Source: Candidatus Nomurabacteria bacterium (GTDB lineage: Bacteria; Patescibacteriota; Minisyncoccia; Phycocordibacterales; UBA918). From it: a stretch of DNA of 64,000 nucleotides. The DNA lies in the NCBI GenBank assembly GCA_020632015.1, contig JACKGI010000002.1, positions 27,121-91,120 of the forward strand. Reading direction: 5' to 3'. Below, in pieces: positions 29,738 to 64,000 of this stretch (position 1 is its first letter; every line of letters begins with the position of its first letter). The notes beneath the pieces are model-generated. The model worked only from the letters and a program-made list of their open reading frames with translations, ran no database searches and was not told the origin of the DNA. Both the position numbers and the translations under genes were made by a program.

Positions 29738-29838
29738 ATTCTTTGTCCACAGTTTTTAGGTAATCCTGTGTATAACTCACAAATTTTATTGCAATTAAAC
29801 AGTACAATATAGCAAAAGTTATTTAGTTATATTTTATT

Positions 29839-31701
29839 ATGTTGTACAACAGGGAAAACCTACCAAACTATGTTCGAACCGCAGGGAAGATAACCGTGGT
29901 TACGGCCTTGTCCGGACTTCTCGTCTTCCTCGTCGCTTTCGTGTTTGATTTCAGCGCTCAAGAACTGAGTAAAGTATCTGCAGCCGGAAACGCGACTACT
30001 ACGCTAACTGTATTGAACACACCTCCAGTGTTCACACTCAACCCATATGAAGTTATCGGGTCATCTACTTCAACACCAACCAACTCTGGTGACGTTCTGC
30101 AGTGGTCTGCTATCGGTACTGACGCCAACGCAGCTGACTACTTCCTGCTTGTATGTAGTACAGACTCTGCTTCAGCAACGCCTAAAACAAATGCTCCTCC
30201 TGAGTGTGGAGCTGGAATACAATGGGGAGTCTCTGCGACTACAACTAGTGGAGCTCTAGCAACAGTGTCTACAACTACTGCTGAGTGGGGTACTGGAGAT
30301 TTCTCTGAAGTAAACCAGTGGTATGCGTGGGTGTGTGATGCTAACCCAACCGACCCAAAGTGTAGTGTTATTCCTGAAACAGGAGATTACGCAACCAGCT
30401 CATCTCCATTCCACATCAATAACAGACCAGTTTTTGATATTAATCTAACTAATGACGGACCAGTAGACCCAGGTGGAGTTATCGCATGGAATTCTACTTC
30501 TTCAGACCCAGACACAGTTGATGCTGAAGATGAAATTTACTTAGTTATCTGTAGCTCAAACTCAGACTACGATCCAAACCTAAACACTTGCCCGTCAGAT
30601 TTCTTAGCTTCAACTACGTTAACTGGAATCCTTAGTGACGTAGCTGCAACTCTTACAATTCCTGCTATTCAAGTAGACGATACATATCCTGCTTATGGAT
30701 ATATTGTAGACGAACATGGACACGAAGCCCTAGGCAACGGACAACAAGCAAACTACATTGTAAGTAACGTAGCTCCTGTTGTCGTTGGTGGCGATATCAT
30801 CCTGAACGGTGGTATTGACATGTCTTTGACAAATGCAGACGCAGGAGAAACTACTGGCTTTAGTTTGACATTCAAAGTTAGCGATGCAAACAGTTGTGAA
30901 AACTTCAGTGCTGGAGCAGAGATTACAGGATATAGAGCAACGGTATTCCGTTCGGATATTGGGACAACTACCTGTGATGGAAGCGGGGCAAACTATAATG
31001 CTAACAATTGTTACGACAGTGGTGTTGCGACAACCACATGGAATCTCGTATGTACTCCTGATGCTTGTGGCGGTACCGGTGATGCCGATATTGACTACAC
31101 TTGTTCATTCCCGCTTTGGTTTATTGCAGATGCAACAGATGCTGGTCCGAATACCCCAGCTGCACAAGAGATTTTGAACTGGTCTGCCGGTGTATACGGA
31201 ATTGATGACAATGCTGCGGTTGGCTCAATGGCAACAGCTACAAATGGTGTTGATGTAGAAAGTGCTGCATATATTGATGTTGGTTCCAGTCAGATTGCAT
31301 ACGGAGGAGTAGAGCCTGGTAATGCGACTGACTTGGTAGCTACTTCAACAACAATCAATATCGGAAACACAGGATTAGACCAGGACTTGCAAGGATCATC
31401 AATGTGTAACACATATTCGTTATCAACTCCGTGTCCGGGTTCAGCCACCTCTACAGTAGATGCTAGTGAACAAAAATTTGCTTCAACCACGATGACTTAC
31501 GGTAACGTACTAGCTACAAATCTATCTTCAACAAGCCCAACTCACTTAGAGCTTGATGTAGCTAAGTCAACATCAACAACGACCCCAAACAATAAGCTGA
31601 CTTATTGGGGAATCAATGTACCATGGACAATATCATTCGCTGGTAGCTATACAGGGCTCAACACTTTCACAGCCATCGTTGCTGAGCCAGGAGACTGGTA
31701 G
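29839..31701 (+). CDS. Secreted/anchored Cys-containing Ig-like repeat protein; its C-terminal half is paralogous to the giant protein's C-terminus
   Basis: N-terminal hydrophobic segment VVTALSGLLVFLVAFVF. The C-terminal ~300 aa (from about 30793) align with the giant's last ~250 aa: NGGIDMSL/NNGIDISL, NNCY, QKFASTTMTY/QKFATTTFDY, LTYWGINVPW/IYWGIAVPFG, GLNTFTAIV/GVNTFTAIS. Confidence 0.8.
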   Translation: MLYNRENLPNYVRTAGKITVVTALSGLLVFLVAFVFDFSAQELSKVSAAGNATTTLTVLNTPPVFTLNPYEVIGSSTSTPTNSGDVLQWSAIGTDANAADYFLLVCSTDSASATPKTNAPPECGAGIQWGVSATTTSGALATVSTTTAEWGTGDFSEVNQWYAWVCDANPTDPKCSVIPETGDYATSSSPFHINNRPVFDINLTNDGPVDPGGVIAWNSTSSDPDTVDAEDEIYLVICSSNSDYDPNLNTCPSDFLASTTLTGILSDVAATLTIPAIQVDDTYPAYGYIVDEHGHEALGNGQQANYIVSNVAPVVVGGDIILNGGIDMSLTNADAGETTGFSLTFKVSDANSCENFSAGAEITGYRATVFRSDIGTTTCDGSGANYNANNCYDSGVATTTWNLVCTPDACGGTGDADIDYTCSFPLWFIADATDAGPNTPAAQEILNWSAGVYGIDDNAAVGSMATATNGVDVESAAYIDVGSSQIAYGGVEPGNATDLVATSTTINIGNTGLDQDLQGSSMCNTYSLSTPCPGSATSTVDASEQKFASTTMTYGNVLATNLSSTSPTHLELDVAKSTSTTTPNNKLTYWGINVPWTISFAGSYTGLNTFTAIVAEPGDW

Positions 31702-31722: not shown

Positions 31723-31760
31723 CAACAGCCATTGTTATACAACAATGGCTGTTGCTTTTT
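31723..31760 (+). terminator. Rho-independent terminator
   Basis: Perfect 14-bp stem CAACAGCCATTGTT (31723-31736) / AACAATGGCTGTTG (31741-31754) with a 4-nt loop, followed by CTTTTTAAAGCTTTTTTT. Confidence 0.85.
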
Positions 31761-31783: not shown

Positions 31784-32749
31784 ATGACGTACATGAATTT
31801 TATTTCACGAAAGTTTTTGCTAGTTCTTTTTTTGCCTGTGCTTTTTTTTAGTACGGGTATTTACAAAGCTGAAGCAGGATTTGGTATTACTCCTCCCTAT
31901 GTTAGAAACACTAGCCTAACTCGTAATTCTACTTACGAGCAGCAAATTCTTTTGGTGAGAGGTGATGCGAACATTGCACAAAAGGCTGAAATTATTATCG
32001 ATGCTCCAGACATTGAAGGTTGGATAGAAGTTCTTGAAGGCGAAGAAATTAAAATGCCAAAAGGTACTCAAAAGGTACCAATGACTGTACGAGTAACAGT
32101 TCCAGACAATGCTCAGTTTGGCGAGTATAAGGGGTCTATTAGAATCAGAACGCTTCCTGATGACGATCAGGTGGCTCAAGGAGCAGTAAGTATCTCTCTT
32201 GGTGCATTGGTGGATATTGATTTGTTAGTCATAGATAGACAGATTAAGGACTTTAGAGTGCGTAAGATTTCAGCGCCTGACCTCAACGAAGGAAACAAGG
32301 TTGGTTGGCTATTTTTCCCGGGAAAGATTAATTTTGAAATGTTAATTGAAAATACTGGTAACGTAGACATCGCTCCTTCAAAAGTAGAGTTTAGAATCTT
32401 TGATCGTTCAGGAAAGGTTATGCTTGAGGAATCAAAGAATATTGGAAGAGTTACAAAAATTAAACCCTACGCCACGGAAAGTGTTATTGCAAAAATACCG
32501 ACTAGACTACCGGCGGGTGGCTACATCGCTAGGTATAAGGTATTCAATGGGGATGAGATTAAACAGGAAGGAGACATAACTCTTAACATTTTACCTGAAG
32601 GTAGCCTTCAAACAGCTGGCTTTGGCTTTATCGGTCTTTCTATAGCACATAAAATCTCAATCCTTTTGCCAATATTTGCTGTAATAATTGCTGCGCTATA
32701 TATCTGGCGTTCACGAGCTCAAGTTCGTGTACGTACCCGAAGAAAATAG
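31784..32749 (+). CDS. Membrane-anchored double beta-sandwich protein (signal peptide, two ~120-aa beta-rich domains, C-terminal TM + basic tail); architecture resembles DUF916/DUF3324 proteins of WxL loci
   Basis: Signal peptide FLLVLFLPVLFFSTGIYKAEA/GFG. First domain motifs W(I)EV..(G)..I..P.G....P..V.V.VP.....GEY.G.I.I. Second domain motifs (L)IEN(T)GN(V)....(V)EF.I(F)D..G... C-terminal TM ILLPIFAVIIAALYIW is followed by RSRAQVRVRTRRK. It is a paralog of 47869..48885 and of the first 300 aa of 48851..50485. Confidence 0.8.
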   Translation: MTYMNFISRKFLLVLFLPVLFFSTGIYKAEAGFGITPPYVRNTSLTRNSTYEQQILLVRGDANIAQKAEIIIDAPDIEGWIEVLEGEEIKMPKGTQKVPMTVRVTVPDNAQFGEYKGSIRIRTLPDDDQVAQGAVSISLGALVDIDLLVIDRQIKDFRVRKISAPDLNEGNKVGWLFFPGKINFEMLIENTGNVDIAPSKVEFRIFDRSGKVMLEESKNIGRVTKIKPYATESVIAKIPTRLPAGGYIARYKVFNGDEIKQEGDITLNILPEGSLQTAGFGFIGLSIAHKISILLPIFAVIIAALYIWRSRAQVRVRTRRK

Positions 32750-32750
32750 T

Positions 32751-33860
32751 ATGCGCAATTATCTATACCTTCTTTTCTTATTTGTCTTTGTAGCAGTTCC
32801 TCTTGCTTCTTTTGCGCAATCTACAAATATCGCAACCACAACACTAACAATAAGTATTTGTGGTAATGAGATTGTTGATGGCGGTGAGGAGTGCGACGTG
32901 CTTGGCGAAACAGGAGTCTATAGCCAAACTATTGCTGGTAGACAATGTACCGCGTCGTGTAATTTTGGTCCTTATTGTGGTGACGGAATTCTTCAGACGG
33001 CTTTTGCTGAGGAATGTGATGACGGCAATAACGACAATGGGGACTTCTGTTCTGCTATTTGTAAAATTGAACCAGCTGGTTCTGGCGGTGGTGGTTCTAG
33101 TGGTGGAGGAACGTCAGGAAGAGGGGGAAGTACTGTTGACTTAGGAGATACGATAATAAATGTAATAGGTCGTGGGTATCCGCTCAGAACAATTAATTTT
33201 TTGCTCGATACTGAATCTGTCGGAACTGTTCGTTCAGACAGTAGTGGAAGGTTTGAATTTTCTACAAATGCGTCTCCAGGTACAGCTACTCTGGGTATCT
33301 GGACCACAGACGTCGATGGTACACGCTCTATCACTTTAAATAATACTTTTGATGTAACTCAGGGTGCTATAACAAATCTTAACGGAATAATTCTACCGCC
33401 AACTATTTCTGTGCCAAATCCTAACGTTAACCCTGGTGATACTATTTTGATTTCTGGTCAGTCAATTCCGAGTTCGAGAGTTGAAGTTCATGTCGACAAT
33501 AGTACTATCGTTGAGACTGTAACTGCTGGAACTGATGGAAAATGGAGTTTGAGTTTTGACACAAGTAGAGTGTCTGTAGCTCAGCATACTCTGAGAGCTA
33601 GAACATTGACTGGCAACCCACCGTTACGAACTGAAAGTAGTTTCAGTACTTCAATCCAATTGTTCGTTGGTGTTGACGGTCAAGCCACACTACCCTCTGA
33701 CCTAAACAGAGATGGCTTCATTAACCTTATTGACTTTTCTATTCTTATTTTTTGGTGGCAAACAAATGGTGGCGATTCAGATCCACCAGCTGACATAAAC
33801 CAAAACGGAAGAGTTAGTCTCGAAGATTTTTCTATTCTTTTGTTCAACTGGACAGGATAA
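32751..33860 (+). CDS. Secreted protein: Cys-rich (myxococcal-type) repeats, Gly/Ser linker, Ig-like domains, C-terminal dockerin-like module
   Basis: ATG at 32751 (1 nt after the previous stop) gives signal peptide MRNYLYLLFLFVFVAVPLASFA/QS. Repeats CGNEIVDGGEECD and CGDGILQTAFAEECDDGNNDNGDFCSAIC are present. The C-terminal region has two EF-hand-like loops, DLNRDGFINLID and DINQNGRVSLED, each followed by FSIL (about 33699-33851). Confidence 0.8.
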   Translation: MRNYLYLLFLFVFVAVPLASFAQSTNIATTTLTISICGNEIVDGGEECDVLGETGVYSQTIAGRQCTASCNFGPYCGDGILQTAFAEECDDGNNDNGDFCSAICKIEPAGSGGGGSSGGGTSGRGGSTVDLGDTIINVIGRGYPLRTINFLLDTESVGTVRSDSSGRFEFSTNASPGTATLGIWTTDVDGTRSITLNNTFDVTQGAITNLNGIILPPTISVPNPNVNPGDTILISGQSIPSSRVEVHVDNSTIVETVTAGTDGKWSLSFDTSRVSVAQHTLRARTLTGNPPLRTESSFSTSIQLFVGVDGQATLPSDLNRDGFINLIDFSILIFWWQTNGGDSDPPADINQNGRVSLEDFSILLFNWTG

Positions 33861-33862
33861 TT

Positions 33863-33885
33863 CACAAAATTTATAAAATTTTGTG
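33863..33885 (+). terminator. AT-rich hairpin after the dockerin-like gene (weak candidate terminator)
   Basis: CACAAAATTT (33863-33872) / AAATTTTGTG (33876-33885) form a perfect 10-bp stem with a 3-nt loop. The T7 run (33895-33901) is not adjacent to the stem. Confidence 0.35.
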
Positions 33886-33901
33886 TATAAGTAATTTTTT
33901 T

Positions 33902-34126
33902 CAAATCTTCTCATCGTACAATGAGATTGTATCTGTAAAGGAGGTAATCATTTAGTATTACTGCACGTTCATTTTGTACGTGAGCACTTCAGCCGGGTGT
34001 TACTTTGCAGATATGCTTGCAGTGCTATTTTGTAAAGCGGAGTGGAGACCACTTTACGGTATGAGCTCACGCTCATTTGTTACCTCACCACGAGTAACAG
34101 ACTGTTAGCCTAATACAACGTAGAGT
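33902..34126 (+). promoter_or_regulatory. Long hairpin-rich non-coding leader upstream of the 388-aa gene
   Basis: This is the largest intergenic gap in the window (266 nt). Hairpins: TCTCAT/ATGAGA 33909-33926, CACGT/ACGTG 33964-33982, GTAAA..GTGG-aga-CCAC-TTTAC 34032-34057, ATGAGC/GCTCAT 34061-34076, GTTAC/GTAAC 34079-34098. An orphan SD-like AAAGGAGGT at 33937-33945 has its complement TTACCTC at 34080-34086. A candidate -10 TACAAT lies at 33917-33922. Confidence 0.35.
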
Positions 34127-35293
34127 ATGATCAGAACGTCAAAATCGTTCTCAATACTCCAAGCAACGGCAGCGATTGTAGCCCTAACCATTCTTCTATG
34201 GTCTGCGGGTCTACCATCACTACAATTTGTAGAAGCTGCAAATGTCACCACACTTAGCGACACGCTCACAGACTCTGGTCCGGGCGTAGTCTCAGATCAC
34301 ACCATCTCGTTTGTAACTCCAACTGGAGTTGCTAACGGTGAGACAATCACGATTGATTTCTCAGACGGTCCATTCGTAGTTGGCTCAGTTGATGAAACTG
34401 ATGTCGACGTATTGGATGACACAAACGATCTCGTTATTGCAGCAGACTGTTCAGGTTCGGATGAAGCAAGTGCTGTCTTTTCAGGAACCACCCTTACTAT
34501 CACACTATGTGCTGGTGATGGAGCGTTTATCCCTTCTAATGGTACAACTACCATTAAAATCGGTTCAAATGCTACATACGGTGGAGATACTGGAGATGCA
34601 GACGCTCAGCTAACCAACCCGAGTGCTGGCTCTTACGAGATTAATGTAACTGCTGGTTCAGCTGATACTGGTTCAACAAGAGTTGCTATCGTGTCGGCGG
34701 TAACAGTTACTGCTTCTGTTGATACACTTTTTACATTTACTGTAGCAGGTGTGGCAGGAGGTCAAACTGTTAACACAGCAGACGTCACTGATGGTCCAAC
34801 AACAGCTACAACCATTCCTTTTGGAGAGCTTGTAGCTGATACAGCAAGTACAACAGCGCAAGACTTAACAGTTGTTACAAACGCCTATAATGGTTTTGTC
34901 GTAACTGTGGTATCTGATGGTCAACTTGTCTCAACTAATGGTGCAGATATTGATAGTTTCCGAAATGGAAATGATCAGTCAACACCAGTAGATTGGGAAG
35001 CACCAACTCCTGTTTTAGGAGATGAAGATACTTATGGTCACTGGGGTCTTACTTCAGATGATGATGCACTAGCTGGTGCTGCTGATCCCTTCGATGCAGG
35101 AGGAGCAGGAGGTCGTTATGCGGCCGCTTCAACTACACCTGTAGAAGTGTTCAGACACACAGGACCAACAGATGGAACAGTAACTGGCGAGGGTACCACC
35201 CGAGTTGGTTACAAAATTGAAGTTACAGCTTTGCAAGAAGCTGCTGACGACTACACAGCTACGCTGACATACGTAGCAACACCAGTGTTCTAA
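34127..35293 (+). CDS. Secreted 388-aa beta-rich protein, probable major structural surface subunit; C-terminal module shared with the 2,060-aa protein
   Basis: Signal peptide MIRTSKSFSILQATAAIVALTILLWSAGLPSLQFVEA/AN. T/V/G/D-rich, Cys-poor beta-type sequence. The C-terminal ~200 aa align with the end of the 41670..47852 product and finish DDYTATLTYVATPVF (vs GDYTTTITYIAVPVF). The gene is bracketed by its own leader and a strong terminator. Confidence 0.85.
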   Translation: MIRTSKSFSILQATAAIVALTILLWSAGLPSLQFVEAANVTTLSDTLTDSGPGVVSDHTISFVTPTGVANGETITIDFSDGPFVVGSVDETDVDVLDDTNDLVIAADCSGSDEASAVFSGTTLTITLCAGDGAFIPSNGTTTIKIGSNATYGGDTGDADAQLTNPSAGSYEINVTAGSADTGSTRVAIVSAVTVTASVDTLFTFTVAGVAGGQTVNTADVTDGPTTATTIPFGELVADTASTTAQDLTVVTNAYNGFVVTVVSDGQLVSTNGADIDSFRNGNDQSTPVDWEAPTPVLGDEDTYGHWGLTSDDDALAGAADPFDAGGAGGRYAAASTTPVEVFRHTGPTDGTVTGEGTTRVGYKIEVTALQEAADDYTATLTYVATPVF

Positions 35294-35326
35294 CGAATAT
35301 TGGCTCTAAGCTTGGAGTTAAAAGAC

Positions 35327-35362
35327 AAAAAACCCTATCTCCCACCACGAGAAGGGTTTTTT
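35327..35362 (+). terminator. Rho-independent terminator
   Basis: AAAAAACCCT-A-TCTC / GAGA-AGGGTTTTTT stem (35327-35341 / 35349-35362) with a 7-nt loop and a T6 tail, 34 nt after the stop. Confidence 0.8.
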
Positions 35363-35397
35363 GTATGTGTACAGGTAGCAATAATTTGTGATTACGC

Positions 35398-35406
35398 TGG
35401 TATACT
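35398..35406 (+). promoter_or_regulatory. Candidate extended -10 element (TGGTATACT) 7 nt upstream of ATG 35414
   Basis: TGN + TATACT at 35398-35406, directly downstream of the 35327-35362 terminator. No SD lies before the ATG, consistent with a leaderless transcript. Confidence 0.35.
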
Positions 35407-35413
35407 AAGTGTA

Positions 35414-36493
35414 ATGAAACAAATGTTTGTTCGGGTTTTTTATTTGGCTACAGTAGCTCTTTTATTCATCGTACCTAGCTCCGTTCAGGCTGCTTCGCTC
35501 TACATTGACCCTCCTTTCAGTACTTTATTTAGTGGTGACTCAGTCACATTAGCCGTTCGCTTGGATACAGACGAAGCTGCGGGTGAGTGTATTAATGCAG
35601 TTGATGCAAAAATTACTTACCCGGCAAACGTTGAACCAGTGGATATTTCCATAGGTAAATCCATTTTTAATATCTGGGTTGAGCAACCAAAAATTAATAA
35701 ACAAGAGCGAACAATAACCTTTGCTGGTGGCATTCCTAATGGATATTGTGGTCGCGTATCGGGAGACCCTAGGTTAACCAATACTCTTGTTGAGGTGGTT
35801 TTTCGTTCACCCGGATTTACGATTGGTGGAGGGTCTTCAGATAGTTCTGAAGCAGTTGTGACATTAAGTGATGAATCTACTGCGTACCTAAATGACGGTC
35901 GTGGAACCAAAGTGTCTCTAGCGCTATATCCTGCGAAAATAAGTTTAGAGAAGGGAGCTGGTTCTGCCTTGGTTAATCAGTGGCAGGAGGAAGTTGATGC
36001 GGACGTCGTTCCACCCGAAGATTTTAGTATTCTCTTGCAAAAGGGAGAGGGTAATTTCTCAAATAAATACTACATTATCTTCAACACAACTGATAAACAA
36101 ACTGGTGTAGATCAATATCAGGTTATGGAAGAACCATTAACTCAATTCGGTACTTTTCAGTGGGGAAGAGCTGACGCTCCGTGGGTGGAAGCACGAAGCC
36201 CATACGTGCTAAAGGATCAAAGTCTTAACAGTATTGTCAGAGTCAAAGCTATTGATAAAGCTGGTAATGAATACGTTGCAACTCTTATTCCTGATGGCTC
36301 TATGCGTACATTATCTTCTTCGCAGATACTAACCGTGGCTCTCACAGTAGTTTCACTAGTTGTTCTGCTCGCTGTAGGCTTCATTTCTTGGCGTGTCATT
36401 AGAAACAGGAGAAAAGAACGTATCAACACAGATGATGATTATGAGAATGACGAAACCGCAACATCCGATGATAATGAAATCCACAATGATTAA
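35414..36493 (+). CDS. Cohesin-like domain protein with an Ig-like module, C-terminal TM anchor and acidic cytoplasmic tail
   Basis: ATG at 35414 gives signal peptide MKQMFVRVFYLATVALLFIVPSSVQA/AS; the track start at 35300 would translate through the terminator hairpin. N-terminal ~150 aa: LYIDPP...G..V.L.V.L......INAVD..I.YP...........SIFNIWV..P......TI.FAGGIPNGY.G. TM VALTVVSLVVLLAVGFISW. Confidence 0.8.
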   Translation: MKQMFVRVFYLATVALLFIVPSSVQAASLYIDPPFSTLFSGDSVTLAVRLDTDEAAGECINAVDAKITYPANVEPVDISIGKSIFNIWVEQPKINKQERTITFAGGIPNGYCGRVSGDPRLTNTLVEVVFRSPGFTIGGGSSDSSEAVVTLSDESTAYLNDGRGTKVSLALYPAKISLEKGAGSALVNQWQEEVDADVVPPEDFSILLQKGEGNFSNKYYIIFNTTDKQTGVDQYQVMEEPLTQFGTFQWGRADAPWVEARSPYVLKDQSLNSIVRVKAIDKAGNEYVATLIPDGSMRTLSSSQILTVALTVVSLVVLLAVGFISWRVIRNRRKERINTDDDYENDETATSDDNEIHND

Positions 36494-47600: not shown

Positions 47601-47852
47601 ACTGGCTGTTCTGGTTCTGCTGTAAGCTGTTCTGGATACCACACAACTGACGCAACATTGGAAGGAGGGTCTGGTAGATTTGCGCCGACAGATTCATACG
47701 CTGCCTTAAGCACATCTCTTAGTGAGATTATGTATAGCTCAGTCCCTTCTGTTGATGTTGAGAACATAATTTACAGACTCAGGATAGGTGCCTTACAGCC
47801 AATTGGTGATTACACAACTACGATTACTTATATAGCCGTACCAGTCTTTTAA
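41670..47852 (+). CDS. Large (2,060-aa) secreted modular surface protein: BNR/sialidase-like propeller region, duplicated ~350-aa unit, four W-R-N-D-D..Y-C-F-R modules, C-terminal module shared with the 388-aa protein
   Basis: Uninterrupted 6.2-kb ORF. The alternative start at ATG 41709 gives MRKLVVMLLITTFVF..LLFQAFA/AEV. An Asp-box-like TTNGGTSWG lies near 41960. The repeats and the C-terminal ...GDYTTTITYIAVPVF are read from the translation. Confidence 0.9.
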   Translation: MFFLEHKKSGFLCMRKLVVMLLITTFVFTDFDTILDWPLLFQAFAAEVTIDDTPSTNGLSHTAVQPTTVFISDQVGYKFYRDGSGGGGTNGTCVYKKTTNGGTSWGTETIVDSQTDCEAIVVWYDKWTPGDAGSYIHIATMDSGDDDLWYNRLDTTSDTLLMGSNPTSTSLTQSAMSITAATANHSMTKGTDGTLYMSISDNTDRFVVSCSSGCGTGSNWTEVGDGTFMDLDEDITLLLPLDGGNILLINRDISANDIRSKVWNGSSWSASWSTVDANAVESGAYDIQMSAVRSPVTGDIYLAYIADANNFTVADHDIRLAKYSGGSWSNLPDLITDDTRGLTSISLTVDENTDTVYVAYSARTTLATADSANVYWATSTSAMTSWGAEQGPVNTSSGNFYGVSFNYSSVQRLYVTWFGAVVDDLFGETIADVAPATTVDVSGTQETEVRASTTDFYVGGKFVITEESASRNVTDIVITENGSVDASTGLNNIKLRYDLDTSSPYDCASESYGGGESQFGSTDTNGFSGADGTSAFSGSVSVSPTQAMCVYVVMDVLKEAADSSDIEIEIANPSTDVLVSGGVTAIPETVKLISGTTNVVDSDLTQTHFHWRNDDGNETGATSRTAGVEDVPLLALQQEVPRRLRFGVSNEGSTSSLPTTLRLEYALNTSSCDLATGWTDVDAVNDDWNMYDSTFVTDGTDTTDIGIGIGGVSNENSVLLSPNGGQKDTSSTVGPLTLLPTNWVETEFSIVASTSATEGNTYCFRLTNNGEELPVYTNYPRATIAADVKVSATSSQISTVDIPTPDFYVGGKFSIIENESSRNVTSITITENGTVDGTTGVENIRLFYDLDTSFPYDCASENYVGGEAQFGTASSSFSSANGSSTFTGSVAITTTQAMCVYTVLDVTSSANNGETLDISINSGSQDVLVSGGGSVGPLTALDITGSTTLAGGIVTLTNYHWRNDDGTETGATSATGGSEDTPLTDFSIGSPIRLRIGLSNEGGTSSVPQRYGLEYGIKSSTCEDIAVWTDADGGGVSWSMHDSGFLTNGEDTTDIAEVNGGVSDPNSSFLSSNGGVRDTESFSATTTLTETEYVDLEYSITSTFDTPYESTYCFRVTQNGSPLLQYDVYPEISIEAKRDFKIQRGTTTVSGTSGVTLTAGVDYVAPSASTSAFVRITNAHHTGAGKDTLGGNQNSDDYTVYILNPGNIETSFTLMRDTDSINNSYVAWEIIEYVGPVGGDNEIIVRDQSVVSYSNSQLVATGTAVSGVVDDNDVVVFITGQMHNGGNRSESFAQQSTSFWASTSSEPVFTRGATGNNSGNVSYSVVEFTGLNWKIQRVEHLFTAVGTTQTENITAVNSLSRTFIHTQKRYDGAISLADYGHDVWLSSIGAVSFFLEPSATTTGVNHYSVAWVVENTQTSAGQMVVQRSNGNTIAGGPEPVAISVPITTHVNATNNASIFLMTSLDSTGNQFPRVLMGATIVSTSTYQIWRSESANSASYRTEIVQWPAADLAVRQNYYRFYVDNDALLPTDPWPAGATDLGENTSVGALDEPLADGDVVRIRMSAKVTNATLPAGLLETKLQYALRDTTCSAVTVWSDVGSPASGEIWRGYDASGVTDGDSLSGNPPTGGDLLISISDRAGRYTETGPSAANQYAVYDGEDIEYDWIIEQNGASQRKTYCFRMVKSDDTQLDGYFHYPEIRTEGFTPVVDSWRWYDDETNETPTTALAAENIAPTNVSKGNAVKLRVTLDEIKNLSQINARFKLQFAEEADFSDVQDVVASTSCIASSVWCYYDGAGIDNDVITSSVLSGSDSCVAGVGAGCGTYNESSEYYNGFTHGASNDTEYEFTLVYTNVTGKFGKVYYFRLYDIANDEVVVASSTNPTLAGESTSLVFSVDGVDANTTIAGIVTDATTTATSLDFGLLPFDTDVEVAQEITVNTNATEGYQVYKYVDQQLLNSYSDQIQPITGTNAVPVSWGTGCSGSAVSCSGYHTTDATLEGGSGRFAPTDSYAALSTSLSEIMYSSVPSVDVENIIYRLRIGALQPIGDYTTTITYIAVPVF
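42970..45075 (+). repeat. In-frame tandem duplication (~1,053-bp period, two copies) inside the 2,060-aa gene
   Basis: DFYVGGKF(V/S)I.E..SSRNVT.I.ITENG.VD..TG..NI.L.YDLDTS.PYDCASE.Y.GGE.QFG is followed by (T/N)(H/Y)(F/Y)HWRNDDG.ETGA...YCFR(L/V)T.NG. GATTTTTATGTTGG starts at 43032 and again at 44085. DNA identity is roughly 70% by eye in the best-conserved stretch. Confidence 0.75.
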
Positions 47853-47868: not shown

Positions 47869-48885
47869 GTGAAAAGAAACTTATTTAGAAATCTTTTAAT
47901 CCTGACAGCAATTTTTTTGCCTGCATCACTTACCTTTGCTGGCGAATTTACAGTCAGACCGTTTCTGATTGATGTCACAGCAGAACCGAGAGAAACGATA
48001 ACTGAAACAGTCCAACTTACTAATGATAGTGAGTATAGAAAGTATGTTGTCTATGCAACAGTAAATGAAATATCGGTTGATAAAGAAGGAGAAATTAAAG
48101 AATTTGTCTCTCCAGTGATGACTGACAGAACAAACACTGTAACTAGTTGGATAGAAGTAAAGAGGGGGAGGATTGAAATTGAACCAGGCCAAAAGGCAGA
48201 AATTCCTGTGGTTCTTAGGGTCAATCCTTTTGCAGAGCCAGGCGAATATCATGCTTTTATCGGTTTTGTGCCGGCGCCAAATAGGCCAAAGGCAGAAAGT
48301 ATTGCGATGTCTGGAGAAGCAGATGGGGTAGTTATTAAGATTACTGTTGAGGATAAGAGGGAAGACAGTATGAAGATTTCAGGCTTCATAATAAATCGTT
48401 TTATAACAGATGATAGTAAGCGTGAGGTCGATGTGGTGATTGAAAATACTGGCGATCTCCCATCAGCACCAATGGGAGAAATCATATTCTATGATTCAAC
48501 AGGAGTTGAAATTGATTCGGCCCCTTTCAATTCTGACGGTGTGGTTATTGCTCCAGGAGAAACTGCTACTCTAAAAGGGTTTGTGCCTGTCGACAAGACG
48601 CTTGGGCGATTTAAAGCGAACCTTTCCCTTAAGTACGGCGAGAATCAAAGAGCATCACTGTACGACACTACAACATTTTTTCTGATGCCTCTAAACTTAC
48701 TATTACTGATATTCGGTGGTATTTTATTAGGAGCGATTATTGTTGCGTTGTTATTTAGAAAAGCATTCATTACGCCGAATACAGATGCAGATGATGGTGA
48801 CGCTGTTACAATGTATGTAAAAGAAGGTCACGAACCAAACCCACAAGATCATGATATCGACCTTAAAAACGTTAATAAAGAGTAG
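47869..48885 (+). CDS. Membrane-anchored double beta-sandwich protein (paralog of 31784..32749); DUF916/DUF3324-like architecture
   Basis: GTG start. Signal peptide LLILTAIFLPASLTFA/GE. Motifs SWIEVKRGRIEIEPGQKAEIPVVLRVNPFAEPGEYHAFIGF and VVIENTGDLPSAPMGEIIFYD. C-terminal TM LLLLIFGGILLGAIIVALLF is followed by a charged tail. Confidence 0.8.
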   Translation: MKRNLFRNLLILTAIFLPASLTFAGEFTVRPFLIDVTAEPRETITETVQLTNDSEYRKYVVYATVNEISVDKEGEIKEFVSPVMTDRTNTVTSWIEVKRGRIEIEPGQKAEIPVVLRVNPFAEPGEYHAFIGFVPAPNRPKAESIAMSGEADGVVIKITVEDKREDSMKISGFIINRFITDDSKREVDVVIENTGDLPSAPMGEIIFYDSTGVEIDSAPFNSDGVVIAPGETATLKGFVPVDKTLGRFKANLSLKYGENQRASLYDTTTFFLMPLNLLLLIFGGILLGAIIVALLFRKAFITPNTDADDGDAVTMYVKEGHEPNPQDHDIDLKNVNKE

Positions 48886-50485
48886 GCCTCTTCAAGCGGG
48901 GTTAGTCCTTTTTTCTATATTTATTTTTTCATATCAGTCTGTCTCTGCACAGTCAGCTCTTTCACTGAGTGTATCCCCAACAATTTTTGACATGTCTGCA
49001 AACCCGACTCAGAACTGGACAAGTTTTGTAAGAGTGATTAATCCTAATCCGTACGAAATAAGGGTCTATGCAAATGTTGTGAACTTCGCGCCTCAAGGTG
49101 AATTAGGGCAGGGTAAATTTGTCCCTTTAATTGAAGAAGAATCTAAAGGAAAAACTATAGCGGAATGGATAGACGTGACAGCAGATGAAATTGTTATCCC
49201 TCCGGAGCAAACTATAGAAGTGCCTTTTATTGTAAACGTACCTGAAGATGCTCCTCCGGGAGGTCACTTTGCCGCGCTACTAATCGGCACTAAGCCACCA
49301 AAGGAAGATAAACAAACTCAGGTTATTACCTCTCAAATCGTTACCACTCTTTTGTTCCTGCGTGTAACTGGAGACATAGATGAGTCGGGAAATATTCGCT
49401 CATTTAGAACGACAAAGAAAATTTTAGAACAACCGCAAGCTACTTTTGAGCTTAGGTTTGAGAACACAGGGAATGTTCATATCCTCCCGCAGGGTGAGAT
49501 AAGAATTACAAATATGTGGGGTCAAGAAAGAGGCGTTATCCCTATTAATAGATCATCGCTGTATGGCAATGTTTTGCCAGATAGTGTCAGAAAATATGAT
49601 TTCACTTGGACAGGTGAATGGTCACCTTCAGATGTTGGGAGATATACAGCTATAGCAAGTCTAGCCTATGGAGAAGACGGAAGGAAATTTTCGTCTAGCG
49701 AAGTTACTTTTTGGGTTATTCCATGGAAGATATTATTGTCTGTTCTACTGGTCTTGGTAGGATTCGGATTATTGTTTACTTGGGCAGTTAAGCTGTATAT
49801 CAAAAAGATGCTTCTTATGGCCGGGGTGTCACAGAATTTAGGAGCGAAGCCCCTTGTTTCAGTCAAGACAAAGCGGAGAGTTTCAGTAGTTGCACCGATT
49901 GAGGAAGGAATGCTAGACCTTCGAGAACAGTGGCAGGAAACATCAAGTCTAAGAGAAAGGGTCAGCACACTTACATCATTTGTTGGAACATATAAAGTAT
50001 TTTTTGGAGTGGTATTCCTAGTAATTCTGTTTATAACACTCATTTTTGCTTATATTCAGTCTGCCTCTGTGTCAGAGAGGGCGTACGACGTTACTTTCGA
50101 TGGTTTAAGTGAAGAAGTGAAGATTTCTTCTGAGGATGTAAAGTATCAAGAGCTTAAAGAGCAGTCTGTTTATGATGCTAGTACTGAGCCAGATTTGTCA
50201 CTACCGAAAATTCAAATAGTAAACAGAAGTGGGGTAAGTGGTCTAGCTGCCGACTTAAGGTTGAAGCTTGAATCTGATGGTTATCAAGTCATCGGCATAG
50301 AAAATGATTTAGGTTCAGCAGAAAAAAATACTGTTATTGTCTATGATCCCGAGTTGTCAGAAGAAGCATTAGTTCTAAGTCAAAAAGTTTACGGAGCACT
50401 ATTGTCTGCCTTTTCTGATGAGACTGATAGCGAAGCACTGATAACTATATATGTAGGCGAAGATCTTCAAAATGCTGTACAATAA
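48851..50485 (+). CDS. Double beta-sandwich protein + TM segments + C-terminal LytR_C-like domain
   Basis: ATG at 48851 overlaps the previous gene by 35 nt; no later start precedes the signal peptide LVLFSIFIFSYQSVSA/QS. Motifs EWIDVTADEIVIPPEQTIEVPFIVNVPEDAPPGGHFAALLI and LRFENTGNVHILPQGEIRITN. TM helices lie near aa 295-315 and 370-395. The C-terminal KIQIVNRSGVSGLAADLRLKLESDGYQV...TVIVYD...ITIYVGEDL (about 50208-50470) matches the LytR_C pattern. Confidence 0.8.
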   Translation: MISTLKTLIKSRPLQAGLVLFSIFIFSYQSVSAQSALSLSVSPTIFDMSANPTQNWTSFVRVINPNPYEIRVYANVVNFAPQGELGQGKFVPLIEEESKGKTIAEWIDVTADEIVIPPEQTIEVPFIVNVPEDAPPGGHFAALLIGTKPPKEDKQTQVITSQIVTTLLFLRVTGDIDESGNIRSFRTTKKILEQPQATFELRFENTGNVHILPQGEIRITNMWGQERGVIPINRSSLYGNVLPDSVRKYDFTWTGEWSPSDVGRYTAIASLAYGEDGRKFSSSEVTFWVIPWKILLSVLLVLVGFGLLFTWAVKLYIKKMLLMAGVSQNLGAKPLVSVKTKRRVSVVAPIEEGMLDLREQWQETSSLRERVSTLTSFVGTYKVFFGVVFLVILFITLIFAYIQSASVSERAYDVTFDGLSEEVKISSEDVKYQELKEQSVYDASTEPDLSLPKIQIVNRSGVSGLAADLRLKLESDGYQVIGIENDLGSAEKNTVIVYDPELSEEALVLSQKVYGALLSAFSDETDSEALITIYVGEDLQNAVQ

Positions 50486-62010: not shown

Positions 62011-62049
62011 TAGCTTTCAACCTTCACCCACACGTGGAGGCGGATTAAT

Positions 62050-64000
62050 ATGGCAACGCCAAAAAAGAAAACAAAAACTAAATGGGAGGAACCTGCTAGC
62101 ACGGAAGCCAGTAAGATTATTGTACGTGGAGCACGAACACATAACCTAAAGAATATTGATGTAGAAATGCCAAGAGGTAGCATGATAGCTATTACTGGTC
62201 CATCCGGTTCAGGTAAGTCTTCTTTAGCTTTTGATACTATTTTTGCCGAAGGTCAACGTCGTTATGTCGAATCCCTTTCTCCATACGCAAGACAGTTTTT
62301 AAATAAAATGCAAAAACCTGACGTAGATGAAATCTCTGGTCTCTCTCCAGCTATATCAATTGATCAAAAATCCGCTTCAAGAAACCCTCGTTCAACAGTC
62401 GCAACTATTACTGAGATATATGACTATCTGCGTATTGTTTATGCTCGCATAGGTCAACCATACTGCTTAGATACAAACGTTCCCATTCAAAAATTATCAC
62501 AAGATGAAATCTTAGGTATTGTTTTAAAGTCTATTGAAGAAAGAGAGGTTAAAACTGCAACAAAGAAACAATCTCAGCAAGTAATGGGTATAGAACTGTC
62601 GAAAGGACGAGTCGCTATATTCGCTCCAGTAGTTGTTGGCCGAAAGGGAGAGTACTACCAAATGCTTTACGACTTATTAAGTAAAGGGTATGAAACGGTC
62701 AAAATTGATGGCCAGATAAAGCAATTACGTGAAAAAATCACATTGACAAAAACAAAACGGCACGATATCGACGTTTTGATTGATGAAATCTATGTTAGCG
62801 AGTTTACAGATGACCCAAAGAGCTCAAGGGAAAGACTTTCAGAAGCTGTAGAACTAGCTTTAGCGGAAGCAAATGGTCTGGTAAAGATAGAGAGTCCTGA
62901 TGGTACAGAGCGTACCTTATCCGCAAAGTTTATCTGTCCCGTTGATGGTTCATCATTCCCAGAAGTTGAGCCTAGACTATTCTCGTTCAACTCTCCCTAC
63001 GGGGCATGTCCTGAATGTAACGGTCTTGGAGTTGTTGGCATCTTCCAATCAGATGAGTGTCAATCATGTAAAGGTGCCAGATTACGACCAGAAGCACTAC
63101 GAGTATATCTAGGGGGCGACGGAAAGAAAAATTTAGGGACAAATATTGTTGATTTTACTAATTTTACAGTAGCTGAAGCTGTTGAATTTGTTAAAAACCT
63201 TAAGCTCTCAAAAAAACAAGAGGAGATAGCATGGCCAGCCCTTAGAGAAGTTATTGAAAGGCTGGATTTTATGATGGACGTTGGAATTGAGTACCTAACT
63301 CTTAATCGTCGAGCAAACACACTTTCAGGTGGTGAAGCGCAAAGAATCAGACTGGCGTCACAGTTAGGTTCTGGCTTAGTAGGTGCGCTTTATGTATTAG
63401 ATGAGCCAACAATTGGCCTACACCAAAGGGATAACGACAAGTTGATAAAAACTCTGCAAGAGCTACGTGATTTAGGTAACACTATCATTGTAGTAGAGCA
63501 CGATGAAGATACGATTCACGCTGCTGATTATTTGATAGATATTGGTCCAGGAGCTGGCGTGCATGGAGGAGAGGTGATTGTTTCGGATTACCTAGGTAAA
63601 CTACTTTCTGAAAAAACTAACGAAACAAAATCAGTTACTCTAGATTATTTGCGAGGTGACAAAGTTATTGAGGTTCCCGAAAGAAGAACTGCAGAAAAAG
63701 GCAAAATTATAATCAAAGGTGGAAAAGCTTTTAATATTAAAAACCTAAATGTTGATATCCCGCTCGGAAAACTAATTTGTGTAACTGGTGTTTCAGGTTC
63801 TGGAAAGTCTACTTTTATGTACGAGATAGTAGACAGAAATCTAAAGTCTCGACTCGAAAAAAGACATCGAAACGCAAAGACTCATAATTGCTCTACTTTT
63901 ACAGGAACAGAATACTTAGGTCGATCAGTTTTAATTGACCAGTCTCCGATTGGGAGAACACCAAGAAGTAATCCAGCTACTTATACTGGCGCATTCACTC
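62050..64000 (+). CDS. uvrA: Excinuclease ABC subunit A, N-terminal ~650 aa (continues past the right edge; absent from the ORF track because no stop is reached)
   Basis: My own translation from ATG 62050: MATPKKKTKTKWEEP..IIVRGARTHNLKNIDVEMPRGSMIAITGPSGSGKSSLAFDTIFAEGQRRYVESLSPYARQFL, then ...CPECNGLG..., LSGGEAQRIRLA, and a second Walker A GVSGSGKST near 63790. The frame stays open to nt 64000. Confidence 0.95.
   Translation, partial: MATPKKKTKTKWEEPASTEASKIIVRGARTHNLKNIDVEMPRGSMIAITGPSGSGKSSLAFDTIFAEGQRRYVESLSPYARQFLNKMQKPDVDEISGLSPAISIDQKSASRNPRSTVATITEIYDYLRIVYARIGQPYCLDTNVPIQKLSQDEILGIVLKSIEEREVKTATKKQSQQVMGIELSKGRVAIFAPVVVGRKGEYYQMLYDLLSKGYETVKIDGQIKQLREKITLTKTKRHDIDVLIDEIYVSEFTDDPKSSRERLSEAVELALAEANGLVKIESPDGTERTLSAKFICPVDGSSFPEVEPRLFSFNSPYGACPECNGLGVVGIFQSDECQSCKGARLRPEALRVYLGGDGKKNLGTNIVDFTNFTVAEAVEFVKNLKLSKKQEEIAWPALREVIERLDFMMDVGIEYLTLNRRANTLSGGEAQRIRLASQLGSGLVGALYVLDEPTIGLHQRDNDKLIKTLQELRDLGNTIIVVEHDEDTIHAADYLIDIGPGAGVHGGEVIVSDYLGKLLSEKTNETKSVTLDYLRGDKVIEVPERRTAEKGKIIIKGGKAFNIKNLNVDIPLGKLICVTGVSGSGKSTFMYEIVDRNLKSRLEKRHRNAKTHNCSTFTGTEYLGRSVLIDQSPIGRTPRSNPATYTGAFT

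What the first reader, a model, noticed from the sequence alone, without database searches (positions are those of the whole stretch)
33861..35362. Stand-alone transcription unit for the 388-aa protein: 266-nt structured leader, orphan SD-like box and strong terminator
Seen: this is the only gene in the locus flanked by a long non-coding gap upstream and a strong terminator (35327-35362) downstream. The leader carries at least four hairpins (coordinates in the feature list). It also has a perfect AAAGGAGGT (33937-33945) with no usable start codon after it, and a 7-nt complement TTACCTC at 34080-34086, about 40 nt before the real ATG, which itself lacks an SD. Known: genes for very abundant structural proteins (S-layer proteins, major pilins, flagellins) are often monocistronic with long, stable, structured 5' UTRs. 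Inference: the 388-aa protein is the high-copy building block, and the 2,060-aa protein sharing its C-terminal module is a low-copy specialised subunit. The leader may stabilise the mRNA or regulate translation.
Basis: partly seen in the sequence, partly recalled or inferred. Interest (0 to 1): 0.55.

Follow-up and report, generated by a model that had tools for sequence, protein, structure and literature searches.

The report
Conserved structured mRNA leader in Parcubacteria
The long gap before this gene encodes a folded RNA leader, apparently undescribed, that is conserved together with its promoter and terminator in dozens of ultra-small (CPR) bacterial species and always sits on the same secreted-protein gene; its 'ribosome-binding-like' box is probably a structural part of the fold, not a ribosome site.

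Summary
The 266-nt gap, AAAGGAGGT, TTACCTC and the terminator are all at the stated coordinates.

The gap is not just hairpins. From about 33929 to 34126 it is a roughly 200-nt leader RNA found in 57 GTDB species loci and 20 metagenome contigs. It occurs once per locus, always directly before homologues of the 388-aa gene. It has no Rfam match.

Covariation is strong: 92% of cells pair, against 36-45% in slid controls, and 33 of 39 pairs show compensatory changes. The fold is two adjacent four-way junctions, and helix P1 starts at the predicted 5' end.

A conserved promoter precedes the leader: a TGTGnATAA box plus an invariant TAnAAT. A nearly invariant 3' UTR follows the gene, with terminator loop CCACCAC.

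GGAGG lies in the core of junction I and is mostly paired. TTACCTC belongs to helix P7, and its pairing with the box is not conserved (9 of 52).

These lineages show no Shine-Dalgarno enrichment (7.5% against 7.9% in the control window). A STAB-SD reading is therefore unlikely.

Most likely this is a cis-acting UTR pair that protects both mRNA ends and presents invariant loops to an unknown partner. High protein abundance remains untested.

The parts
33863..33885 (+). AT-rich hairpin CACAAAAUUU-AUA-AAAUUUUGUG directly after the upstream stop codon. It lies outside the predicted transcript. It is terminator-like for the upstream gene, and its 3' arm overlaps the promoter box.
   Evidence: Sequence and fold. 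23 of 68 homologous loci have a hairpin of -8 kcal/mol or stronger abutting the box.
33879..33892 (+). Conserved upstream promoter box TTTTGTGTATAAGT (core T.TGTG.ATAA). It is centred about -45 from the predicted start. It could be an activator or RNA-polymerase contact site.
   Evidence: Nearly invariant in alignment A2. Spacing to the -10 box is fixed at 24-26 nt in 45 loci. There are 2 copies in the window against 0.06 expected.
33917..33922 (+). -10 box TACAAT. T1, A2, A4 and T6 are invariant and position 3 is free. There is no conserved -35.
   Evidence: 68 instances.
33928..33929 (+). Predicted transcription start, 6-7 nt after the -10 box. Helix P1 begins here.
   Evidence: Inferred from the -10 position and the start of P1. 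No transcript data.
33929..34014 (+). Leader domain I, a four-way junction. P1 33929-40/34003-14 (12 bp). P2 33943-48/33957-62 (loop CAUUUAGU). P2b 33964-68/33978-82 (variable). P3 33983-89/33995-34001 (loop with invariant CAGCC).
   Evidence: RNAalifold and pair counts. WIN coordinates. Covariance model R1 finds 5 non-training loci at E 1e-14 to 1e-17.
33937..33945 (+). SD-like box AAAGGAGGU. GGAGG (33940-44) forms the P1/P2 junction: G40 closes P1, G41 and A42 are the 2-nt linker, and G43/G44 open P2.
   Evidence: GGAGGT is nearly invariant. Pairing.
34015..34109 (+). Leader domain II, a four-way junction. P4 34015-23/34101-09. P5 34030-40/34049-59 with invariant loop AGUGGAGA (34041-48). 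P6 34061-66/34071-76. P7 34077-86/34092-34100 with apex CUC-ACCAC-GAG.
   Evidence: GTGGAG is present in 72 of 72 leaders.
34080..34086 (+). TTACCTC: 5' strand of P7 plus its first loop bases. It is not a conserved partner of the SD-like box.
   Evidence: CCTC occurs in the P7 region of only 9 of 52 leaders. Chance 5.8%.
34110..34126 (+). Single-stranded tail with invariant AAUACAACGUAGAG (34112-25), ending 1-5 nt before the AUG.
   Evidence: It is unique to this gene in the window and in each locus.
34127..35293 (+). 388-aa ORF. It has an N-terminal hydrophobic helix plus an AEA|A site (Sec-type signal, inferred) and two beta-sandwich domains. No Pfam, NCBIfam or PDB sequence match.
35282..35317 (+). 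3' UTR hairpins. H1 35282-90/35295-303 encloses the stop codon. H2 35304-08/35313-17 is CUCUAAGCUUGGAG.
   Evidence: Alignments. 93% of cells pair against 35-61% when slid.
35327..35362 (+). Intrinsic terminator whose loop and apical stem are conserved in sequence (CUCCCACCACGAG 35339-51; loop CCACCAC 35342-48).
   Evidence: A hairpin of -7 kcal/mol or better plus a U-run in 50 of 55 loci. CCCACCACG is 40-60 nt after the stop in 60 loci. It is unique in the window.
29767..29808 (+). Second copy of the bipartite promoter-like motif (TGTGTATAAC-N25-TACAAT), 31 nt before the 620-aa ORF at 29839.
47334..47852 (+). C-terminal module of the 2,060-aa ORF that is homologous to residues 198-388 of the 388-aa protein.

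Best explanation
The 388-aa gene is transcribed as its own mRNA from a conserved promoter: the box TGTGnATAA, then TAnAAT 24-26 nt downstream, with a start near 33929.

Its roughly 200-nt 5' UTR is a conserved RNA fold of two adjacent four-way junctions. P1 closes the first (with P2, P2b and P3). P4 closes the second (with P5, P6 and P7). P1 begins at the first or second transcribed base and abuts P4 with 0-1 nt between them. The 5' end is therefore probably tucked into a quasi-continuous P1-P4 helix. A 17-nt invariant single-stranded tail leads from the fold to an SD-less AUG.

The 3' UTR is a second conserved module. One hairpin spans the stop codon, a second is palindromic, and the third is a terminator with an invariant CCACCAC loop.

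Proposed mechanism (inferred): the two UTRs act in cis at the RNA level. Burying both ends protects the mRNA from end-dependent RNases and gives long-lived, high expression. The invariant loops (UUAG, CAGCC, GUGGAGA, CACCAC), the GGAGG junction and the tail are contact points for tertiary packing or for a dedicated partner that sets translation initiation.

Shown here: conservation, covariation, exclusive association with the gene, and position relative to the promoter. Inferred: the transcription start, coaxial stacking, stabilisation, and the existence of a partner.
For: - Leader sequence is conserved over its full length in 56 loci (nhmmer E 1e-36 to 1e-4). A profile search finds one hit per locus, always just before the homologue.
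- A DNA pattern that ignores the coding sequence recovered 20 true leaders from metagenomes. All 18 with enough downstream DNA are followed at once by the homologue.
- Covariation: 92% of cells pair against 36-45% when partners are slid. 33 of 39 pairs carry compensatory changes. The covariation score is 0.569 against 0.10-0.13. 0 of 500 shuffles reach the observed value.
- The unconstrained MFE of the window's leader from the predicted start reproduces P1-P4, P6 and P7.
- The -10 box shows the pattern expected of a promoter hexamer, and P1 starts 6-7 nt after it.
- The 3' UTR is nearly invariant and 93% paired.
- No conserved uORF: the invariant block is read in three different frames.
- CACCAC sits in a hairpin loop in 26 of 72 leaders (shuffle mean 1.1, maximum 5) and in 60 of 60 terminators.
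- Established precedent: 5'-terminal helices and 5'/3' UTR features stabilise mRNAs of abundant proteins (B. subtilis hbs, PMC5737220; cry3A, PMC4113751).
Against: - There are no transcript, half-life or abundance data. The start site is inferred only.
- Simple stabilisers do not need invariant loops or about 200 nt of fold, so stabilisation alone under-explains the conservation.
- Leader-to-3'-UTR duplex energies are no better than shuffles.
- Codon bias of the gene is only mild.
- Which RNases these organisms have was not checked.
Confidence: 0.5

Rival explanations
1. The leader and terminator loops are operators for a trans-acting RNA-binding protein. This could be a translational repressor or activator that couples synthesis of the secreted protein to export or assembly, in the manner of CsrA on the B. 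subtilis hag leader. Regulation, not stability, would be the main function.
For: - Loops and tail are invariant across species whose proteins are only 55-60% identical.
- Three GGA-containing elements are present: GGAGG, the GUGGAGA loop and UUGGAG in H2.
- The CACCAC loop module is reused in P7, P2b and the terminator.
- The tail next to the AUG is unique to this gene.
Against: - No candidate binding protein was identified in the window.
- Whether these genomes encode CsrA or similar proteins was not tested.
- This reading is compatible with, and hard to separate from, the best explanation.
Confidence: 0.25
2. The leader is a new riboswitch, with one or two aptamers. It would sense a metabolite, ion or second messenger and control translation of a surface protein, as c-di-GMP riboswitches do for pilin and adhesin genes.
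For: - Its size, multi-helix junctions and strong covariation resemble large aptamers.
- It has no Rfam match, so it would be a new class.
Against: - No expression platform was found. The tail and AUG are unpaired in the consensus.
- There is no leader terminator.
- The only alternative pairing noticed (5' strand of P1 with the tail) is not conserved.
- Conserved bases lie mainly in hairpin loops, not in junction cores.
- It is associated with a single gene family of structural type.
Confidence: 0.1
3. The GGAGG box is a STAB-SD-type element. A 30S subunit would pair with it through the 16S 3' end near the mRNA 5' end. That would block 5'-exonuclease or act as a stand-by site for the SD-less AUG.
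For: - GGAGG(U) is nearly invariant.
- It lies about 12 nt from the predicted 5' end.
- No start codon follows it.
- Precedent: cry3A STAB-SD (PMC4113751).
Against: - Four of the five bases, or their neighbours, are held in P1 and P2.
- 531 ORFs of these lineages show an SD core in 7.5% against 7.9% in a control window. Window genes lack SD.
- The anti-SD motif is reported missing in about half of Parcubacteria (PMC9297842).
Confidence: 0.07
4. The invariant P5 loop (GUGGAGA) kisses the invariant terminator loop (UCUC-C-CAC / CCAC), joining the two ends of the mRNA. In some lineages it would instead kiss internal CACCAC loops in P7 or P2b.
For: - The loops are complementary over 4 bp, or 7 bp with one bulge (sequence).
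- CACCAC loops are strongly enriched and always apical.
- Precedent: 5'/3' UTR pairing in hbs and icaR (PMC5737220; PMC3868564).
Against: - Both partners are invariant, so covariation cannot test the pairing.
- The complementarity is short.
- Global duplex energies are not better than shuffles.
- About 60% of leaders have no internal CACCAC loop.
Confidence: 0.1

Closest known systems
B. thuringiensis cry3A mRNA: STAB-SD 5' stabiliser plus 3' terminator 'retroregulator' (PMC4113751)
   Same: A monocistronic unit with a long 5' UTR. An SD-like box lies near the 5' end of the stable transcript and starts no ORF. A stable terminator hairpin lies at the 3' end.
   Different: - Here the box is built into a covarying four-way junction.
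- The lineage shows no SD usage and may lack an anti-SD.
- The fold is about 200 nt with invariant loops.
- The terminator loop itself is conserved in sequence.
B. subtilis hbs mRNA: structured 5' UTR and a 14-bp 5'/3'-UTR interaction that limits RNase Y and RNase J1 (PMC5737220)
   Same: Both UTRs appear to cooperate in the stability of the mRNA.
   Different: - hbs relies on a strong SD and initiating ribosomes, and on a long 14-bp pairing.
- Here only 4-7 nt of loop complementarity exists, without energetic or covariation support.
- Here the start codon has no SD.
5'-terminal stem-loop stabilisers (E. coli ompA, B. subtilis aprE) and long S-layer gene leaders (Lactobacillus slpA, Thermus slpA); from my own knowledge, not re-checked here
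   Same: The 5' end is base-paired from the first nucleotides. The gene encodes an exported envelope protein. The leader is long.
   Different: - Those are one or two hairpins with little sequence conservation between species.
- This is an eight-helix fold conserved across many families of Paceibacteria.
B. subtilis hag (flagellin) leader bound by CsrA; from my own knowledge
   Same: Several GGA-containing sites, one of them in a hairpin loop, on the mRNA of a secreted self-assembling protein.
   Different: - In hag one CsrA site overlaps the SD. Here there is no SD.
- Presence of CsrA in these genomes was not tested.
Riboswitches and other Rfam cis-regulatory leaders
   Same: A covarying, gene-specific 5' UTR fold.
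   Different: No Rfam family matches, even at E up to 10. No expression platform was found.

Membership tests
Any Rfam 15 family | Score at or above the family's gathering threshold, or at least a credible E-value | tested here: not met
   Whole window at gathering threshold: 0 hits. Region 33700-35500 at E up to 10: no hit inside the leader. Only weak minus-strand hits lie over the terminator.
Structured cis-acting leader RNA (generic) | Conserved secondary structure supported by compensatory changes | tested here: met
   33 of 39 pairs have changes on both sides. 92% of cells pair against 36-45% when slid. 0 of 500 shuffles reach the observed value.
Structured cis-acting leader RNA (generic) | Constant position and strand relative to one gene family | tested here: met
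   One hit per locus, directly upstream and on the same strand. 18 of 18 motif-first metagenome hits are followed by the homologue.
STAB-SD element | SD-like sequence with no start codon at initiation distance | tested here: met
   AAAGGAGGT is followed by AATCATTTAG. The first start of the ORF is 34127.
STAB-SD element | Located at the 5' end of the stable transcript | tested here: inconclusive
   It lies 12 nt from the start predicted from the -10 box. No transcript data.
STAB-SD element | Free to pair with the 16S 3' end in an organism that uses SD/anti-SD pairing | tested here: not met
   The box is held in P1 and P2. SD core is found in 7.5% of 531 ORFs against 7.9% in the control window. 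The 16S of this MAG is not in the window. The literature reports anti-SD loss in about half of Parcubacteria.
STAB-SD element | Stabilises the mRNA | not testable with these tools
   Needs decay measurements.
Intrinsic (Rho-independent) terminator | GC-containing hairpin directly followed by a U-run | tested here: met
   35327-35362 folds at -11 kcal/mol and is followed by UUUUUU. The same holds in 50 of 55 loci.
Sigma-70-type promoter | -10 hexamer TATAAT-like | tested here: met
   TAnAAT has T1, A2, A4 and T6 invariant in 68 instances.
Sigma-70-type promoter | -35 hexamer 16-18 nt upstream | tested here: not met
   No conserved hexamer at that position. Instead there is a conserved box 24-26 nt upstream.
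Riboswitch | Expression platform: alternative pairing that hides the start region or forms a terminator | tested here: not met
   The tail and AUG are unpaired in the consensus. There is no leader terminator. No conserved alternative helix was found.
Riboswitch | Specific ligand binding | not testable with these tools
   Needs probing with ligands.
   No Pfam, NCBIfam or PDB sequence match. The N-terminus is Sec-like, not G|FTLIE. The fold is two generic Ig-like sandwiches.
   Only weak codon bias was seen.

The most novel reading that the evidence does not exclude
The two UTRs form one RNA device that replaces SD-based initiation on the main surface-protein mRNA of Parcubacteria that lack SD usage. 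The double four-way-junction leader would recruit the small ribosomal subunit or a dedicated factor directly, in an IRES-like way. Its invariant GUGGAGA loop would communicate with the invariant CCACCAC loop of the terminator, and with lineage-specific copies in P7 or P2b, so that the mRNA works as a closed loop.
Probability: 0.12. Interest if true: 0.85.

Novelty: new variant of a known kind. Interest (0 to 1): 0.7.

Why it matters
- Very few structured regulatory RNAs are known from the candidate phyla radiation. This one is large (about 200 nt, eight helices), has strong covariation support, and is absent from Rfam.
- It is unusual in that promoter, 5' UTR and 3' UTR are all conserved as one package around a single gene of a widely conserved envelope gene cluster.
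- It occurs in lineages that show no Shine-Dalgarno usage. It therefore offers a concrete, testable mRNA for asking how such bacteria achieve selective, strong or regulated translation and mRNA stability.
- It also corrects an appealing but probably wrong reading, that the 'orphan SD' is a ribosome-binding or STAB-SD site.

Tried and rejected
- **Rfam.** Gathering threshold and E up to 10: no family matched.
- **tRNA/tmRNA.** None found.
- **Upstream ORF in the leader.** Rejected. The invariant block is read in three frames and stop positions vary.
- **SD box pairing with TTACCTC.** Rejected as a conserved feature (9 of 52; chance 5.8%).
- **General P2b-P7 kissing loop.** Only a few lineages fit (GUCGCG/CGCGAC in L027, L042, L044, L061). 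It is not significant overall.
- **Long 5'/3' UTR duplex.** Energies are not better than shuffled 3' UTRs.
- **RNAalifold on the 3' UTR.** Almost nothing was predicted because the sequence hardly varies. I supplied the helices by hand.
- **Leader in the distant protein subfamily (40-45% identity; L059, L063-L080).** Absent by both HMM and covariance model.
- **Identity of the protein.** Pfam, NCBIfam and a PDB sequence profile gave nothing. Foldseek gave only generic Ig-like adhesin, BslA and cohesin-dyad matches with low TM-scores. hhalign against the window's cohesin protein and the downstream 359-aa protein gave no relation. The AlphaFold model of the C-terminal module alone failed (pLDDT 44.6).
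- **Literature.** Searches for this RNA or for a Parcubacteria S-layer or major surface protein found nothing relevant.
Full report
**Source and observation**

The 388-aa ORF (34127-35293) is identical to a hypothetical protein of a Candidatus Nomurabacteria MAG.
- The upstream 390-aa ORF stops at 33860, which leaves a 266-nt gap.
- AAAGGAGGT is at 33937-45, with no usable start codon after it.
- TTACCTC is at 34080-86.
- A bulged hairpin with an A6/U6 extension is at 35327-62.

The C-terminal 190 residues are shared with the 2,060-aa ORF, and with no other ORF of the window.

**The gap is a conserved RNA**

I fetched 80 homologous loci from one-genome-per-species contigs. A long non-coding stretch upstream of the gene is the rule.

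The window's leader aligns collinearly over its whole length with 56 of these loci (nhmmer E 1e-36 to 1e-4; alignment A2). A profile of the leader hits once per locus and once in the 64-kb window, always directly before the homologue.

I also ran a DNA pattern built only from leader elements (GGAGGT...TTCAGCC...GTGGAGAC) against metagenome contigs. It returned 120 stretches, of which 20 are true leaders. All 18 with enough downstream DNA run straight into a homologue with 47-68% identity.

The distant protein subfamily (40-45% identity) lacks the leader by both HMM and covariance model. Rfam has no matching family. Literature searches found no description.

**Promoter**

Two blocks precede the RNA.
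- **TACAAT (33917-22).** T1, A2, A4 and T6 are invariant and position 3 varies in 68 instances. This is the signature of a -10 hexamer, not of an RNA element.
- **TTTTGTGTATAAGT (33879-92).** Its core is T.TGTG.ATAA and it lies a fixed 24-26 nt upstream of the -10 box. No -35 hexamer is conserved between the two blocks.

The same bipartite motif occurs once more in the window, 31 nt before the 620-aa ORF at 29839. That makes 2 copies found against 0.06 expected.

In about a third of loci, a hairpin belonging to the upstream gene abuts the box. In the window that hairpin is 33863-85. It lies outside the predicted transcript. The start site (about 33928-29) is inferred from the -10 position only.

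**Structure**

I aligned 52 leaders from the predicted start to the ATG (A3). RNAalifold predicted seven helices. The pair counts are:
- 92.0% of cells pair, against 36-45% when the 3' partners are slid by 1-3 columns.
- 33 of 39 pairs have changes on both sides.
- The covariation score is 0.569 against 0.10-0.13.
- 0 of 500 shuffles reach the observed values.

In window coordinates:

| Helix | Coordinates | Note |
|---|---|---|
| P1 | 33929-40 / 34003-14 | 12 bp |
| P2 | 33943-48 / 33957-62 | loop CAUUUAGU |
| P2b | 33964-68 / 33978-82 | variable |
| P3 | 33983-89 / 33995-34001 | loop with invariant CAGCC |
| P4 | 34015-23 / 34101-09 | |
| P5 | 34030-40 / 34049-59 | invariant loop AGUGGAGA |
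| P6 | 34061-66 / 34071-76 | |
| P7 | 34077-86 / 34092-34100 | |

After P4 comes an unpaired tail (34110-26) with invariant AAUACAACGUAGAG.

The unconstrained MFE from the predicted start gives P1-P4, P6 and P7, plus an isoenergetic alternative in place of P5.

The RNA is therefore two four-way junctions with almost no linker bases. P1 starts at the first or second transcribed base and is separated from P4 by 0-1 nt. I infer coaxial stacking that buries the 5' end next to the point where the tail exits.

A covariance model of domain I found five loci that were not used for training, at E 1e-14 to 1e-17.

There is no conserved upstream ORF. The invariant GGAGUGGAGACC block is read in three different frames in different species.

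**The SD-like box**

GGAGG(U) is nearly invariant, but it is the core of junction I:
- G33940 closes P1.
- G41 and A42 are the only linker bases.
- G43, G44 and U45 open P2, whose stem covaries.

TTACCTC is the 5' strand and first loop bases of P7. A CCUC there is found in only 9 of 52 leaders. A 7-nt complement to the box arises by chance in 5.8% of shuffles.

None of about 26 window genes, bar one (uvrA-like, GGAGG-N9-ATG at 62036), has an SD. Over 531 ORFs of the window and the 80 loci, an SD core occurs at -18 to -4 in 7.5%, against 7.9% in a control window.

Tsurumaki et al. (RNA 2022, PMC9297842) report that the anti-SD motif is detected in only 48% of Parcubacteria. I could not inspect the 16S rRNA of this MAG. 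Together these results make a STAB-SD or 30S-docking role unlikely. They suggest the box is kept for the fold or for another partner.

**3' UTR**

The region after the stop codon is almost invariant across species. It has three elements:
- H1 (35282-90 / 35295-303) encloses the stop codon. It shows some compensatory change coupled to the last codons.
- H2 (35304-17) is the palindrome CUCYAAGCUUGGAG.
- The terminator (35327-62) carries CUCCCACCACGAG at its apex.

Overall, 93% of cells pair, against 35-61% when slid.

CCCACCACG lies 40-60 nt after the stop codon in 60 loci, and with two exceptions (L007, L013) nowhere else in them. It is unique in the window.

The same apical motif (CACCAC in a hairpin loop with a covarying stem) recurs inside 26 of 72 leaders. 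It sits in P7 in the window's subgroup and in P2b in another. The shuffle mean is 1.1 and the maximum is 5.

The motif is complementary to the invariant P5 loop over 4 bp (GUGG/CCAC), or 7 bp with one bulge for the terminator. Because both sides are invariant, covariation cannot test this pairing. Whole-UTR duplex energies are no better than shuffles.

**Protein and context**

AlphaFold (pLDDT 79.7) gives an N-terminal helix followed by two beta-sandwich domains. Foldseek finds only generic Ig-like adhesins, BslA and cohesin dyads, with low TM-scores. Pfam, NCBIfam and PDB sequence searches are empty.

The gene lies in a conserved cluster, in the order 620 aa, 321 aa, 390 aa (with dockerin), leader, 388 aa, 359 aa, 620 aa. 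Its members are 45-80% identical across 42-59 loci. The 388-aa protein is therefore not uniquely conserved, but it is the only member with this leader.

Its codon usage is mildly distinctive: Nc 44.0, and the lowest GC3 of 27 ORFs. Abundance remains untested.

**Interpretation**

The evidence shows a gene-specific, cis-acting RNA package of promoter, 5' fold, tail and 3' hairpins, all under strong purifying selection.

The reading I favour, at about 0.5, has two parts:
- The UTRs protect both mRNA ends. This follows the logic of 5'-terminal helices and of hbs and cry3A.
- The UTRs present invariant loops to a partner that governs initiation at an SD-less AUG.

The alternatives are:

| Reading | Confidence |
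|---|---|
| Mainly regulatory protein operator | 0.25 |
| New riboswitch | 0.10 |
| P5-terminator loop kissing | 0.10 |
| STAB-SD | 0.07 |

**Verdict**

The feature is a previously undescribed structured leader and UTR system of Paceibacteria.

Noticed in passing
window 29767-29808 and 31723-31754: The 620-aa ORF (29839-31701) carries the same bipartite promoter-like motif as the 388-aa gene (TGTGTATAAC-N25-TACAAT), only 31 nt before its ATG. It ends with a perfect 14-bp terminator hairpin. The two genes may share a regulator. The 620-aa gene is also conserved in 42 loci, but there its upstream region is cut off.
   Followed up: partly
window, all ORFs; loci L001-L080: These genomes show no Shine-Dalgarno enrichment (7.5% against 7.9% in the control window over 531 ORFs). 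The one clear exception in the window is the uvrA-like ORF starting at 62050, preceded by GGAGG-N9-ATG (62036).
   Followed up: partly
window 1068-25544: A single open reading frame of 8,158 aa fills over a third of the window. It was not analysed.
   Followed up: no
window 32688-33860, 38952-39695: Dockerin (390-aa ORF) and cohesin-plus-dockerin (247-aa ORF) signatures sit next to Ig-like and beta-propeller proteins. This suggests a cohesin-dockerin-type surface assembly in a CPR bacterium. Scores are near or below the Pfam thresholds.
   Followed up: no
L027, L042, L044, L050, L061 and related loci (P7 apex); L013, L015, L017, L021 (P7 region): In lineages without a CACCAC loop, the P7 apex carries palindromes (GUCGCGAC or UCGCGA; UGUACA). 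These could support loop-loop dimerisation of two mRNAs. In four loci the P2b loop is complementary to P7 (GUCGCG/CGCGAC).
   Followed up: partly
window 48851-50485: The 544-aa ORF has a LytR_C domain and a weak WxL-interacting-protein peptidoglycan-binding match (E 0.0019). This hints at a Gram-positive-type cell-surface complex.
   Followed up: no
window 40295-40326 and 39727-39747: A perfect 14-bp palindrome lies inside the 592-aa ORF. A 9-bp palindrome lies in the gap before it. Both were flagged by the terminator scan, and the second reads the same on both strands.
   Followed up: no
window 34127-34160 and homologues: The first roughly 10 codons are also unusually conserved at the DNA level (ATG.A.AGAACG.C.AAC.CGT). 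Selection on the RNA may therefore extend past the start codon.
   Followed up: no
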